Assembly (NCBI RefSeq): GCF_003790525.1
Contig: NZ_CP033635.1
Source of the DNA: Escherichia coli
GTDB taxonomy: Bacteria; Pseudomonadota; Gammaproteobacteria; Enterobacterales; Enterobacteriaceae
Direction: 5' to 3' (one strand)
Length of the DNA: 64,000 nt
Of this stretch, positions 9,083 to 19,448 are shown in pieces (positions within the stretch are counted from its first letter, which is position 1; each line of letters opens with the position of its first letter). The notes beneath the pieces are model-generated. The model saw only the letters and a list, made by a program, of their open reading frames with translations, made no database searches and was not told where the DNA came from. The translations under genes were made by a program, and so were the position numbers.

Positions 9083-9169
9083 GCCGAGGTGGTGGAATTG
9101 GTAGACACGCTACCTTGAGGTGGTAGTGCCCAATAGGGCTTACGGGTTCAAGTCCCGTCCTCGGTACCA
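9083..9169 (+). tRNA. leuU: tRNA-Leu (long variable arm, CCA-encoded)
   Basis: GCCGAGGTGGTGGAATTGGTAGACACGCTACCTTGAGGTGGTAGTGCCCAATAGGGCTTACGGGTTCAAGTCCCGTCCTCGGTACCA; acceptor stem GCCGAGG/CCTCGGT, T-loop GGTTCAAGTCC; immediately downstream of secG. Confidence 0.9.
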
Positions 9170-9180
9170 AATTCCAGAAA

Positions 9181-9208
9181 AGAGACGCTGAAAAGCGTCT
9201 TTTTTCGT
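9181..9208 (+). terminator. Rho-independent terminator after leuU
   Basis: AGACGCTgaaaAGCGTCTtttttcgtttt. Confidence 0.7.
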
Positions 9209-9627
9209 TTTGGTCCTGGTCTGAGGAATGGTTGTCAGGTATCTGTATCTCGTCCAGTTGCTTTACTCGTAGCTGGTACCTTGAAACGATGGTGCCGGTA
9301 CGCCTTAGTTATAAACTTTTCCCTTCTGCTGACATAATTGGCACTTTATTGTGTCAACTCCAGTTCCGGTACGAATACGGATATGTTTACTTCTCGATAA
9401 ACCATCCTGCTCCTGTCAGTATAACTACTGATGGCTACGTTCTGCGTAATGTTTAGAGACGCATTGATAATGTTATTTAATTACTGAGAACGCAATGGTC
9501 GCATCATTTAAAAAGAAAAAACTAACAGTGTTTCGGTCTGATATGGATCAGAGTTGAAAAACATGTCTGATATAAAATTGAACATTGTTGATAATTGTTT
9601 ATATTGGTTGTGAACCTGGATTTCTGG

Positions 9628-11253
9628 ATGACAGTATTCAACAAATTTGCTAGAAGTTTTAAATCTCATTGGTTGTTGTATCTTTGTGTTATTGTTTTTG
9701 GTATTACGAACTTAGTCGCCTCTTCCGGAGCGCATATGGTTCAGCGATTGCTGTTCTTCGTCCTGACCATCCTGGTTGTTAAACGTATATCATCCCTTCC
9801 GCTTCGCCTGCTTGTTGCCGCACCATTTGTGTTACTGACTGCGGCAGACATGAGTATTAGCCTCTATTCATGGTGTACCTTTGGTACAACTTTCAATGAT
9901 GGATTTGCGATTAGTGTGCTGCAGAGTGATCCGGATGAAGTTGTGAAAATGTTGGGGATGTATATCCCTTATCTATGTGCTTTTGCTTTTTTATCCCTTC
10001 TTTTTTTGGCAGTAATAATAAAATATGATGTTTCCTTGCCGACAAAAAAAGTGACAGGAATATTATTGCTGATTGTCATTTCGGGCAGTTTATTTTCAGC
10101 TTGTCAATTTGCTTATAAAGATGCAAAAAATAAAAAAGCGTTCAGTCCATATATACTAGCGTCTCGATTTGCTACCTATACACCGTTTTTCAATCTCAAT
10201 TATTTTGCTTTAGCAGCGAAAGAGCATCAAAGATTACTCTCAATTGCAAACACGGTGCCGTATTTTCAATTATCAGTCAGGGATACAGGTATTGATACCT
10301 ACGTGTTGATTGTGGGGGAGTCTGTACGTGTCGACAATATGTCTTTGTATGGATACACACGCTCTACGACACCGCAAGTCGAAGCACAAAGAAAACAGAT
10401 CAAACTGTTTAATCAAGCAATAAGCGGTGCACCTTACACTGCGCTGTCGGTTCCCCTTTCTTTAACTGCTGATTCTGTTTTGAGTCATGACATTCATAAT
10501 TACCCGGACAACATTATTAATATGGCTAATCAAGCAGGATTTCAGACTTTCTGGCTAAGCTCGCAATCCGCTTTTCGGCAGAATGGTACAGCAGTTACCA
10601 GTATCGCCATGCGCGCCATGGAAACAGTCTATGTCAGAGGATTTGATGAATTGTTGTTGCCGCATTTATCGCAAGCGTTACAGCAAAAGACGCAGCAAAA
10701 GAAACTGATTGTTCTTCATTTAAATGGAAGCCATGAACCGGCTTGTAGCGCCTATCCGCAATCCAGCGCCGTGTTTCAACCGCAGGACGATCAGGATGCC
10801 TGCTATGACAACTCCATTCATTACACAGATAGTTTGCTAGGTCAGGTTTTTGAATTATTAAAAGATCGCCGCGCCTCGGTCATGTATTTTGCCGACCACG
10901 GCCTGGAACGCGACCCTACGAAGAAGAACGTCTATTTTCATGGAGGCAGGGAGGCCAGCCAGCAGGCATATCATGTCCCGATGTTTATCTGGTATAGCCC
11001 CGTTCTTGGGGATGGCGTGGATCGCACAACGGAAAACGATATCTTTTCCACTGCGTACAATAATTACCTTATTAATGCGTGGATGGGGGTAACAAAGCCG
11101 GAACAGCCGCAAACGCTGGAGGAAGTGATTGCACACTATAAAGGAGACTCACGGGTTGTAGATGCAAACCATGATGTTTTCGATTTTGTGATGCTAAGAA
11201 AGGAGTTTACTGAGGATAAGCAAGGTAACCCCACCCCTGAAGGGCAGGGTTGA
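9628..11253 (+). CDS. yhbX: Inner-membrane sulfatase-family protein, phosphoethanolamine-transferase (EptA/OpgE)-like paralogue
   Basis: 541-aa ORF from ATG 9628 (MTVFNKFARSFKSHWLLYLCVIVFG...), N-terminal hydrophobic segments followed by a soluble domain; gene is AT-rich relative to neighbours. Confidence 0.8.
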   Translation: MTVFNKFARSFKSHWLLYLCVIVFGITNLVASSGAHMVQRLLFFVLTILVVKRISSLPLRLLVAAPFVLLTAADMSISLYSWCTFGTTFNDGFAISVLQSDPDEVVKMLGMYIPYLCAFAFLSLLFLAVIIKYDVSLPTKKVTGILLLIVISGSLFSACQFAYKDAKNKKAFSPYILASRFATYTPFFNLNYFALAAKEHQRLLSIANTVPYFQLSVRDTGIDTYVLIVGESVRVDNMSLYGYTRSTTPQVEAQRKQIKLFNQAISGAPYTALSVPLSLTADSVLSHDIHNYPDNIINMANQAGFQTFWLSSQSAFRQNGTAVTSIAMRAMETVYVRGFDELLLPHLSQALQQKTQQKKLIVLHLNGSHEPACSAYPQSSAVFQPQDDQDACYDNSIHYTDSLLGQVFELLKDRRASVMYFADHGLERDPTKKNVYFHGGREASQQAYHVPMFIWYSPVLGDGVDRTTENDIFSTAYNNYLINAWMGVTKPEQPQTLEEVIAHYKGDSRVVDANHDVFDFVMLRKEFTEDKQGNPTPEGQG

Positions 11254-11260
11254 TGTCGAA

Positions 11261-12619
<1,359 letters not shown>

Positions 12620-12654
12620 TTAATTAACTGATGATGAGCCTGGATTTCCGCTCT

Positions 12655-12695
12655 CACTGAATTTTTATGCAAAATAAATGAGTTTTCATTTAATC
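12655..12695 (-). promoter_or_regulatory. Putative tandem ARG boxes (ArgR operator) in argG promoter region
   Basis: TGAATTTTTATGCA and ATGAGTTTTCATTT, two adjacent imperfect palindromes resembling TGAAT-N4-ATTCA, about 50-90 nt upstream of argG start. Confidence 0.4.
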
Positions 12696-12829
12696 ATCTT
12701 TTATCGGAGACAGGAAGAGTTTAGTGTGTTTTTTGTAAAATAATGCGCTTAAGGGAGAGCAGGAGAAGGCAAAAGTATTCAACAAATGAAAGTGAACTGG
12801 ATATTCATTCACGTGATTAGCAATAAACG

Positions 12830-12859
12830 TTGACAAAATGTGGCATGGATCACTATAAT
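12830..12859 (+). promoter_or_regulatory. Near-consensus sigma70 promoter upstream of metY (TTGACA-N18-TATAAT)
   Basis: TTGACA at 12830-12835 and TATAAT at 12854-12859 on + strand; a second weaker -10 TAGAAT at 12931-12936 lies closer to the tRNA. Confidence 0.5.
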
Positions 12860-12951
12860 GCCTGCAGATTTTACGTCCCGTCTCGGTACACCAAATCCCA
12901 GCAGTATTTGCATTTTTTACCCAAAACGAGTAGAATTTGCCACGTTTCAGG

Positions 12952-13028
<77 letters not shown>

Positions 13029-13152
13029 CTTTCCCTTAGAGTCCTTTTTCAAATATACTGTGAAGACTTCGGCCTTCGTAGTGGGATTTGAAAAAATCCT
13101 TCTGGAAAGTGCTCCAGACCGCAGTTGCGGTTATAGGGTTCAGTTATATAAA

Positions 13153-13177
13153 GCCCCGATTTATCGGGGTTTTTTGT
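13153..13177 (+). terminator. Rho-independent terminator/attenuator downstream of metY
   Basis: aaaGCCCCGATttATCGGGGttttttgtt; a second weaker hairpin GGGCtttaGGCCC+T7 at 13196-13217. Confidence 0.6.
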
Positions 13178-13234
13178 TATCTGACTACAGAATAACTGGG
13201 CTTTAGGCCCTTTTTTTATGTCTTGGGGGTGGGC

Positions 13235-13687
13235 TTGTCCACATTAGAGCAAAAATTAACAGAGATGATTACTGCGCCAGTTGAGGCCCTGGGTTTTGAA
13301 CTGGTTGGCATCGAATTTATTCGCGGTCGCACATCCACACTGCGCATCTATATTGATAGTGAAGATGGCATCAATGTTGATGATTGTGCTGATGTGAGCC
13401 ACCAGGTAAGTGCTGTGCTGGATGTTGAAGATCCCATCACCGTTGCTTATAACCTGGAAGTCTCCTCACCGGGTCTCGATCGCCCACTGTTCACGGCTGA
13501 ACACTACGCCCGTTTCGTCGGAGAAGAGGTGACTCTGGTTCTCCGCATGGCGGTACAAAACCGTCGTAAATGGCAGGGCGTTATCAAAGCGGTAGACGGT
13601 GAAATGATCACAGTTACCGTCGAAGGTAAAGATGAAGTGTTCGCGCTGAGTAATATCCAGAAGGCGAACCTGGTTCCCCACTTTTAA
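13235..13687 (+). CDS. rimP: Ribosome maturation factor RimP
   Basis: ORF (L/M)[31 protein letters not shown]...; no in-frame ATG, so a TTG (13235 or 13223) or GTG (13229) start is inferred; 150 aa from 13235. Confidence 0.8.
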
Positions 13688-19419: not shown

Positions 19420-19448
19420 TTGCGATAACAGGTCGCTACGAGTAGAAT
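19420..19448 (+). promoter_or_regulatory. Candidate rpsO promoter
   Basis: TTGCGA-N17-TAGAAT on + strand about 110 nt upstream of rpsO ATG. Confidence 0.4.

What the first reader, a model, noticed from the sequence alone, without database searches (positions are those of the whole stretch)
12830..12936. Near-consensus sigma70 promoter far upstream of initiator tRNA metY
TTGACA-N18-TATAAT at 12830-12859 is an almost perfect promoter lying about 90 nt upstream of the mature tRNA 5' end, in addition to a weaker TAGAAT -10 at 12931. This implies a long processed leader on the transcript that carries metY-rimP-nusA-infB.
Basis: seen in the sequence. Interest (0 to 1): 0.3.

Follow-up and report, generated by a model that had tools for sequence, protein, structure and literature searches.

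The report
Known P-1 promoter of metY operon

Summary
The window is E. coli. TTGACA-N18-TATAAT sits exactly at 12830-12859. It is the only perfect match in 64 kb (0.05 expected by chance). The weaker TTTGCA-N18-TAGAAT is at 12907-12936, and metY is at 12952-13028.

The strong site is the published P-1 promoter (Granston 1990). Brandi et al. 2019 print its sequence, which equals window 12827-12870. They map its start by primer extension to the A after GCCTGC (12866) and find it the strongest of P-1, P0 and P2 in reporter fusions. A dRNA-seq table lists primary 5' ends that map to 12865 (P-1), 12943 (P0) and 13064 (P2). Genomic SELEX lists TTGACA-18-TATAAT for metY.

In 56 species with argG next to metY, the -35 is 99% conserved and the -10 is 90% conserved, while the spacer is only 57% conserved.

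One thing I did not find in the literature: leader positions 12875-12896 are a remnant of the 3' end of tRNA-Leu gene leuU. In 19 species without argG there, intact leuU lies 59 nt upstream of metY and P-1 is absent. P-1 therefore sits at the edge of an old yhbX-argG insertion.

The parts
12830..12835 (+). P-1 -35 hexamer TTGACA
   Evidence: The commonest base averages 0.99 across 56 distinct sequences from the argG-adjacent species plus the window. Matches the published P-1 sequence.
12836..12853 (+). P-1 18-nt spacer. It contains a CRP-like core, TGTGGCATGGATCACT, at 12839-12854, and one difference from K-12 (A in the window, G in MG1655, at 12845).
   Evidence: The spacer length of 18 is constant across species, but its sequence is only 0.57 conserved. 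The CRP-like core scores 8/10, the best in the intergenic region, but is not above chance across the window. SNP versus MG1655.
12854..12859 (+). P-1 -10 hexamer TATAAT
   Evidence: Variants in other genera are TATACT, TACAAT, TAAACT and TACACT; mean conservation 0.90.
12860..12865 (+). Discriminator GCCTGC, 5 of 6 bases G/C
   Evidence: Sequence. PMC6511841 interprets it as a stringent-control signature. It is only 0.61 conserved across species.
12865..12866 (+). P-1 transcription start
   Evidence: Primer extension gives +1 = A after GCCTGC, which is 12866 (PMC6511841). dRNA-seq gives 3316398 in U00096.2, which maps to 12865 using an offset of 1978 to U00096.3. That offset is from my memory, with a sanity check on the rpsO promoter.
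12866..12951 (+). 86-nt 5' leader of the P-1 transcript, removed to give mature tRNA-fMet
   Evidence: Follows from the mapped start and the tRNA coordinates. Leader length is 84-86 nt in 39 of 41 distinct leaders (81 and 90 in the other two), and its sequence is 0.91-0.95 conserved. No Rfam family matches it. No structure signal.
12875..12896 (+). Remnant of the leuU (tRNA-Leu GAG) 3' end plus the first trailer bases: GTCCCGTCTCGGTACACCAAAT
   Evidence: It differs by 3 edits from leuU 9152-9172. The exact 21-mer is present in 30 of the 56 argG-adjacent species loci and differs by 1 edit in 22. Alignment to intact leuU-metY in species without argG.
12907..12936 (+). P0 promoter, TTTGCA-N18-TAGAAT
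   Evidence: Published P0 sequence. dRNA-seq class I start at 3316320, which maps to 12943. A P0-like promoter is also present in the 59-nt leuU-metY spacer of species without argG.
12952..13028 (+). metY, initiator tRNA-Met(CAT)
   Evidence: ARAGORN, Rfam tRNA, RefSeq annotation.
13031..13064 (+). P2 promoter region and its start, just 3' of metY
   Evidence: The published P2 sequence ACTTTCCCTTAGAGTCCTTTTTCAAATATACTGTGAAGACTT equals window 13029-13070. dRNA-seq class I start at 3316199 maps to 13064.
12656..12694 (.). Tandem ARG boxes (12656-12673 at 15/16; 12677-12694 at 13/16) overlapping the divergent argG promoter (minus strand: -35 ATGAAA at 12689-12684, -10 AAAAAT at 12666-12661)
   Evidence: Consensus scan. 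Hexamers as listed for argG in PMC3946193.
12796..12813 (.). Third ARG-box-like sequence, 17 bp upstream of the P-1 -35
   Evidence: 13/16 to the ARG-box consensus. Only 8 + strand positions in the whole window reach 13 or more.
9083..9172 (+). Intact leuU (9083-9169). Its last 18 nt plus AAT (9152-9172) form the left copy of the direct repeat.
9173..12874 (.). About 3.7 kb lying between the two repeat copies: the leuU terminator, yhbX (9595-11253, +), argG (11261-12604, -), the argG control region and the P-1 core promoter
   Evidence: Pfam Sulfatase and argininosuccinate synthase domains, ORFs, and absence of the segment in 19 species.

Best explanation
This is P-1, the distal sigma-70 promoter of the E. 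coli metY-rimP-nusA-infB(-rbfA-truB) operon.

Shown:
- RNA polymerase with sigma-70 recognises the perfect -35 and -10 hexamers, which are separated by 18 bp, and starts at 12865/12866.
- The primary transcript therefore has an 86-nt leader ahead of the initiator tRNA. It runs through the weaker P0 promoter (start at 12943), through metY, and on into the mRNA part of the operon.
- In isolation P-1 is the strongest of the three promoters and the most cold-inducible. In its native setting its output is reduced, which the authors attribute to competition with P0, 78 bp downstream.

Inferred or taken from general knowledge:
- The leader is removed when RNase P cuts at the tRNA 5' end (general knowledge of tRNA maturation).
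- The tRNA is separated from the downstream mRNA by RNase III and other nucleases (stated in PMC6511841).
- The G+C-rich discriminator suggests ppGpp sensitivity. This is the authors' inference and was not tested.
- My own inference on origin: P-1 is the outermost element of an old yhbX-argG insertion into the 3' end of leuU. It fires outward through the displaced leuU 3' end and the ancestral leuU-metY spacer. It may replace read-through from secG-leuU that the insertion interrupted.
For: Sequence and chance: (the only perfect match in 64 kb; 0.05 expected).

Identity of the locus: the region is 100% identical to E. coli chromosomes annotated argG / tRNA-Met / rimP, and at least 80% of it is present in 5418 of 5426 complete genomes.

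Published P-1 evidence from PMC6511841: the printed P-1 core equals window 12827-12870, with primer-extension start sites and cat fusions.

dRNA-seq: TAP-enriched 5' ends at 3316398, 3316320 and 3316199, the first flagged as overlapping RegulonDB.

Genomic SELEX with RpoD holoenzyme lists TTGACA-18-TATAAT for metY--pnp.

Comparative footprint in the argG-adjacent species: -35 0.99 and -10 0.90, with an 18-bp spacing in all 56 loci, against spacer 0.57 and upstream flank 0.45.

Origin: a perfect 56/0/0/19 association between argG adjacency and P-1 presence, intact leuU 59 nt upstream of metY where argG is absent, and the leuU 3'-end remnant in the leader.
Against: - The founding paper (Granston 1990) and Krin 2003 are not in the library. 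P-1's attribution and its CRP/ArgR coupling therefore rest on citing papers and on my memory.
- The dRNA-seq site for P-1 is class II: TAP-enriched but without a clear leading edge of coverage. Primer-extension signals at 37 C were weak. Its share of operon transcription in vivo is therefore uncertain.
- The window strain differs from K-12 by one base in the P-1 spacer, and no start-site data exist for this exact allele other than the sequence printed in PMC6511841.
- The dRNA-seq position is 1 nt from the primer-extension position.
- The 56 versus 19 association most likely reflects a single evolutionary event, so it is not 75 independent observations.
Confidence: 0.95

Rival explanations
1. 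The promoter is real, but in the chromosome it mainly serves as part of the divergent argG-metY control region. On this reading it acts as a polymerase-binding site coupled to CRP and ArgR regulation of argG, and contributes little to metY-nusA-infB expression, which would come mostly from P0 and P2.
For: With all three promoters present, cat mRNA was much lower than with P-1 alone. dRNA-seq classes P0 and P2 as class I but P-1 only as class II. The title of Krin 2003, cited, speaks of regulatory coupling of the divergent promoters. An ARG-box-like site lies 17 bp upstream of the -35, and a CRP-like core lies in the spacer. P-1 occurs only where argG is adjacent.
Against: Primer extension detects P-1 transcripts reading through metY in vivo, and they rise after cold shock. 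The argG start (about 12654, minus strand) is about 210 bp away, which is far for direct polymerase interference. The leader downstream of P-1 is strongly conserved, which suggests the transcript or that DNA matters.
Confidence: 0.12
2. The 5' end near 12866 is a processing product of a longer upstream transcript, and the consensus hexamers are a coincidence.
For: tRNA precursors are heavily processed. The P-1 site lacked a leading edge of coverage in global RNA-seq (class II).
Against: The 5' end is TAP-enriched, meaning triphosphorylated. A fragment carrying only P-1 drives strong cat transcription from the same start. RpoD holoenzyme selects this site in vitro. The hexamers are conserved while the spacer is not. 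The upstream gene, argG, is on the opposite strand.
Confidence: 0.02

Closest known systems
P-1 promoter of the E. coli metY-nusA-infB operon (Granston, Thompson and Friedman 1990, J Bacteriol 172:2336; characterised further in PMC6511841)
   Same: It is the same element. The sequence is identical to the printed P-1 core, in the same position relative to P0 and metY, with the same start site.
   Different: Nothing of substance. The window strain has A rather than the K-12 G at 12845 in the spacer. That is the allele printed in PMC6511841, which reports a mid-spacer difference between strains K-12 and MRE600.
Tandem promoters of stable-RNA operons (for example rrn P1/P2), with G+C-rich discriminators and growth-rate or stringent control
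   Same: Two tandem sigma-70 promoters precede a stable RNA gene. In E. coli the distal one has a G+C-rich discriminator (GCCTGC).
   Different: Here the distal promoter has fully consensus hexamers with an 18-bp spacer. rrn P1 instead has a suboptimal 16-bp spacer and a non-consensus -35. The discriminator is not conserved across genera (0.61). ppGpp sensitivity of P-1 has been proposed but not shown.
Genomic islands integrated at the 3' end of tRNA genes, flanked by a duplicated tRNA 3' end (attL/attR)
   Same: A 21-nt repeat of the leuU 3' end plus trailer, extending to about 28 nt with 2 mismatches, flanks the 3.7-kb yhbX-argG segment. An 'empty site' with leuU directly next to metY exists in related genera.
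   Different: No integrase or other mobility gene was seen in the segment. Its only large ORFs are yhbX and the housekeeping gene argG. The insert is fixed across many genera. The mechanism of insertion is therefore inferred from the scar alone.

Membership tests
Sigma-70 (RpoD) housekeeping promoter | -35 hexamer close to TTGACA and -10 hexamer close to TATAAT, 16-18 bp apart | tested here: met
   12/12 hexamer matches with an 18-bp spacer.
Sigma-70 (RpoD) housekeeping promoter | A primary (triphosphorylated) transcript 5' end 5-9 nt downstream of the -10 | tested here: met
   From published data, not my own experiment. Primer extension gives +1 at 12866. The TAP-enriched dRNA-seq end maps to 12865.
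Sigma-70 (RpoD) housekeeping promoter | Bound by RpoD holoenzyme and active when isolated | tested here: met
   From published data. Genomic SELEX lists TTGACA-18-TATAAT for metY. The P-1-only cat fusion is strongly expressed.
Sigma-70 (RpoD) housekeeping promoter | Evolutionary conservation of the hexamers relative to the spacer and flanks | tested here: met
   -35 0.99 and -10 0.90, against spacer 0.57 and upstream flank 0.45, in the argG-adjacent species.
metY-nusA-infB P-1 promoter (Granston 1990) | Lies upstream of P0 and metY in the argG-metY intergenic region of E. coli, with the published core sequence | tested here: met
   Window 12827-12870 equals the P-1 sequence printed in PMC6511841. 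Locus identity.
Stringently controlled stable-RNA promoter | G+C-rich discriminator between the -10 and +1 | tested here: inconclusive
   GCCTGC (5 of 6 G/C) in E. coli, but only 0.61 conserved, with A/T-rich variants in Klebsiella and Raoultella.
Stringently controlled stable-RNA promoter | Inhibition by ppGpp/DksA | not testable with these tools
   Only proposed in PMC6511841.
CRP-regulated promoter | A CRP site (TGTGA-N6-TCACA) at a position that explains the regulation | tested here: inconclusive
   The best core in the intergenic region is 12839-12854 (8/10), inside the P-1 spacer. Such matches are at chance frequency in the window: 29 found against 27.5 expected. The experimentally mapped site (Krin 2003) could not be read.
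tRNA-targeted integrated element (att duplication) | Direct repeat of the tRNA 3' end at both borders of the insert | tested here: met
   9152-9172 and 12875-12896 are the only two matches in the window with 3 edits or fewer. The remnant is exact in 30 of the 56 argG-adjacent species loci.
tRNA-targeted integrated element (att duplication) | Uninterrupted (empty) site in related genomes | tested here: met
   leuU lies 59 nt upstream of metY in the 11 non-argG loci scanned with ARAGORN. The leuU 3' end sits at the matching position in 17 of the 19 loci without argG. Alignment.
tRNA-targeted integrated element (att duplication) | Integrase or other mobility gene inside the insert | tested here: not met
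   Only yhbX (Sulfatase domain) and argG were found as large ORFs. The 9173-9594 gap was not searched for gene fragments.

The most novel reading that the evidence does not exclude
P-1 is not an ancestral metY promoter. It arrived, or arose, at the outer edge of a roughly 3.7-kb yhbX-argG insertion into the 3' end of leuU. That insertion split an ancestral secG-leuU-metY tRNA arrangement in the common ancestor of the Escherichia, Salmonella, Citrobacter, Klebsiella and Enterobacter lineages. The P-1 leader is the displaced leuU 3' end plus the old leuU-metY spacer. Its near-invariance across genera (0.91-0.95, higher than the P0 spacer at 0.82) points to an unrecognised function. Candidates are an upstream element for P0 or a processing determinant inherited from the leuU trailer. 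I found no paper describing this, but the library is incomplete.
Probability: 0.6. Interest if true: 0.35.

Novelty: already known. Interest (0 to 1): 0.12.

Why it matters
For the finding as submitted, it matters little. It rediscovers from sequence alone a promoter mapped in 1990 and re-examined in 2019, which mainly shows that the first-stage reading was sound.

The comparative result adds a modest evolutionary point. The strongest promoter feeding the initiator tRNA, NusA and IF2 in E. coli sits on the scar of an old insertion into a tRNA gene, and it exists only in lineages that carry that insertion. This gives a concrete example of how a core translation operon acquired a new distal promoter, and it explains why metY became regulatorily coupled to arginine biosynthesis.

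The unexplained strong conservation of the tRNA remnant in the leader can be tested by a small deletion.

Tried and rejected
- **Founding papers.** Granston 1990 (PMC208867) and Krin 2003 (PMC154083) are not held. I used citing papers instead.
- **Start-site tables that gave nothing.** I looked in the supplements of Cappable-seq (PMC4782308), ROSE (PMC10301672) and Salmonella ChIP-exo (PMC10794520). The tables were either truncated or absent. The EDL933 Cappable-seq supplements are truncated when stored, so I did not search them.
- **RNA structure in the leader.** The single-sequence fold is not better than shuffles (z = -0.25). The consensus fold of 22 distinct leader 5' parts is weak (-3.6 kcal/mol) with no compensatory pair. 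Variation does fall in the predicted loop, but that is not evidence, so I rejected structure as a supported feature.
- **Rfam.** No family matches the leader.
- **CRP site in the P-1 spacer.** It is the best core match in the intergenic region, but matches of that quality occur at chance frequency in the window. I kept it only as a lead.
- **Short exact repeat.** AGTATTCAACAAAT occurs at 9633-9646 and 12774-12787. Aligning the surrounding regions showed no extended homology, so I did not pursue it.
- **Extent of the tRNA-derived region.** Similarity upstream of 12875 to the leuU T-arm is about 40-47% by eye and not convincing. I therefore place the border of the remnant between 12860 and 12875 only.

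Full report
**1. What is in the sequence**

- The window around the finding reads ...aacgTTGACAaaatgtggcatggatcacTATAATgcctgcAgatttt... The hexamers are at 12830-12835 and 12854-12859, 18 nt apart.
- The consensus scan scores this site 12/12. It scores the proximal site TTTGCA-N18-TAGAAT (12907-12936) at 9/12.
- A pattern search finds this as the only perfect TTGACA-N16-18-TATAAT in the 64-kb window on either strand. Shuffles give 0.05 expected.
- ARAGORN places tRNA-Met(CAT) at 12952-13028 and tRNA-Leu(GAG) at 9083-9169.

**2. Where the window comes from**

- Region 12600-13260 is 100% identical to many E. coli chromosomes. At least 80% of it is present in 5418 of 5426 complete genomes, annotated argG / tRNA-Met / rimP.
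- It differs from K-12 MG1655 at three positions:
  - 12816, upstream of the -35;
  - 12845, A in the window and G in K-12, in the middle of the P-1 spacer;
  - 12999, G in the window and A in K-12, inside the tRNA.
- The coordinate mapping is: window x = 3331241 minus the U00096.3 position.

**3. What it is**

- PMC6511841 (Brandi et al. 2019) states that the metY-nusA-infB operon has three known promoters. P-1 and P0 lie upstream of metY and P2 lies at its 3' side. It credits P-1 to Granston et al. 1990.
- The paper prints the P-1 core as ACGTTGACAAAATGTGGCATGGATCACTATAATGCCTGCAGATT, which is window 12827-12870 exactly. The printed P0 and P2 cores correspond to 12904-12945 (one base different, in the spacer) and to 13029-13070.
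- The paper describes '+1 Adenine' preceded by six bases of which five are G/C. That places the start at 12866.
- Primer extension detected P-1, P0 and P2 transcripts in vivo.
- In cat fusions, a fragment with P-1 alone gave the highest transcript level and the largest cold induction (about 4-fold). The fragment with all three promoters gave low expression at 37 C, which the authors attribute to competition between P-1 and P0.
- Independently, Shimada et al. 2014 list TTGACA-18-TATAAT for metY--pnp among RpoD holoenzyme SELEX sites, opposite argG's ATGAAA-17-AAAAAT.
- Romero et al. 2014 (dRNA-seq of BW25113, reference U00096.2) list reverse-strand starts at 3316398 (class II, overlaps RegulonDB), 3316320 (class I) and 3316199 (class I).
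- I converted these with an offset of 1978 between U00096.2 and U00096.3 at this position. The offset comes from my memory of the sequence revisions. As a sanity check, the rpsO start 3309807-3309809 lands 6-8 nt after a TAGAAT at 19443-19448.
- With that offset the three starts map to window 12865, 12943 and 13064. These are 6 nt after the P-1 -10, 7 nt after the P0 -10, and just after the P2 -10.
The leader is 86-87 nt long.

**4. How it works**

Shown by the cited data:
- sigma-70 recognition;
- start at 12865/12866;
- read-through across P0 and metY;
- high intrinsic strength, cold induction, and reduced output next to P0.

From general knowledge or the authors' inference:
- RNase P removes the leader.
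- RNase III and other nucleases separate the tRNA from the mRNA.
- ppGpp acts through the GCCTGC discriminator.
- Regulation is coupled to argG through CRP and ArgR. Krin 2003 was not readable here. PMC3105977 lists metY-argG as a divergent pair with one CRP site.

What I see in the sequence:
- A canonical pair of ARG boxes (12656-12673, 12677-12694) lies over the argG promoter.
- A third ARG-like box (12796-12813) lies 17 bp upstream of the P-1 -35.
- The best CRP-like core of the intergenic region (12839-12854, 8/10) lies inside the P-1 spacer.
- The CRP match is not statistically distinctive, so I treat it as a lead only.

**5. Related sequences**

- A genome scan with RimP returned 80 loci from distinct Enterobacterales species.
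- In all 56 usable loci where argG is the divergent upstream neighbour, a promoter scoring 10/12 or better lies with its -35 starting 117-126 nt (mostly 120-122) before the tRNA. The spacer is 18 bp in every case.
- In all 19 usable loci without argG there, no such promoter exists.
- Average frequency of the commonest base, over 56 distinct aligned sequences:

| Segment | Conservation |
|---|---|
| Upstream flank of the -35 | 0.45 |
| P-1 -35 | 0.99 |
| P-1 spacer | 0.57 |
| P-1 -10 | 0.90 |
| Discriminator | 0.61 |
| Transcribed leader | 0.91-0.95 |
| P0 spacer | 0.82 |

- This is the footprint expected of a working promoter.

**6. An unexpected detail**

- In the species without argG, intact leuU lies 59 nt upstream of metY. 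The P0-like promoter sits in that 59-nt spacer.
- The E. coli P-1 leader aligns to that arrangement. Positions 12875-12896 (GTCCCGTCTCGGTACACCAAAT) are the last 18 nt of leuU plus AAT, with three edits.
- Among the 56 argG-adjacent species loci, the exact 21-mer is present in 30 and differs by one edit in 22.
- In the window, the only other match is leuU itself at 9152-9172.
- The similarity continues a few bases beyond: AAATTCCAGAA after leuU against AAATCCCAGCA in the leader.
- The roughly 3.7 kb between the copies holds the leuU terminator, yhbX, argG, the argG control region and the P-1 core.
- This is the scar expected from an insertion into the 3' end of a tRNA gene, with the 'empty site' preserved in Erwiniaceae and several Enterobacteriaceae genera.
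- No mobility gene is left in the segment, so the mechanism is inferred.
- On this reading P-1 is the outermost element of the insert. It may compensate for lost read-through from secG-leuU, but that last step is speculation.
- I found no paper mentioning this.

**7. Why the leader is so conserved remains unexplained**

- There is no Rfam match.
- There is no folding signal.
- There is no covariation.
- Two candidates remain untested: a DNA element upstream of P0 (the region spans -77 to -37 of P0), and a processing determinant inherited from the leuU trailer.

**8. Verdict**

Interest is low.
- The leuU remnant and the link to the argG insertion are a modest, apparently unreported addition.

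Noticed in passing
window 12875-12896 and 9152-9172: The P-1 leader contains a remnant of the 3' end of leuU (tRNA-Leu GAG). It forms a direct repeat with the intact leuU 3.7 kb upstream, bracketing yhbX-argG. In 19 related species without argG here, leuU lies 59 nt upstream of metY and P-1 is absent.
   Followed up: yes
window 12866-12906: The first 40 nt of the P-1 leader are nearly invariant across genera (0.91-0.95), more so than the P0 spacer (0.82) or the P-1 spacer (0.57). No RNA structure, covariation or Rfam match explains this.
   Followed up: partly
window 12999: metY in this strain has G where K-12 has A, in the variable-loop region of the tRNA. From memory, this is the known tRNA-fMet1 (G46) versus tRNA-fMet2 (A46) difference, with K-12 metY being the unusual allele.
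   Followed up: no
window 12845: There is a single-base difference from K-12 (A versus G) in the middle of the P-1 spacer, inside the CRP-like core. The A allele is the one printed in PMC6511841, which reports a K-12/MRE600 difference at such a position and speculates that it alters promoter activity.
   Followed up: partly
window 12796-12813: An ARG-box-like sequence (13/16) lies 17 bp upstream of the P-1 -35, in addition to the canonical tandem ARG boxes at 12656-12694 over the argG promoter. This may relate to the reported ArgR effect on metY.
   Followed up: partly
window 13117-13217: There is an Rfam rimP leader (RF01770, 102 bits) between metY and rimP. Terminator-like hairpins lie at 13150-13173 and 13198-13210.
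   Followed up: no
window 9633-9646 and 12774-12787: An exact 14-nt direct repeat, AGTATTCAACAAAT, occurs near the 5' end of yhbX and in the argG-metY intergenic region. A 13/14 repeat (TGAACCTGGATTTC / TGAGCCTGGATTTC) occurs at 9611-9624 and 12635-12648. No extended homology surrounds either repeat.
   Followed up: partly
L017 and L029 (Escherichia sp. ESNIH1 and MAG UBA7338), about 117 nt upstream of metY: These two argG-adjacent genomes have a diverged P-1 (TTGCAA-N18-TATAAT), an 81-nt leader, and a leuU remnant too diverged to detect. They are the only outliers among the 56.
   Followed up: no
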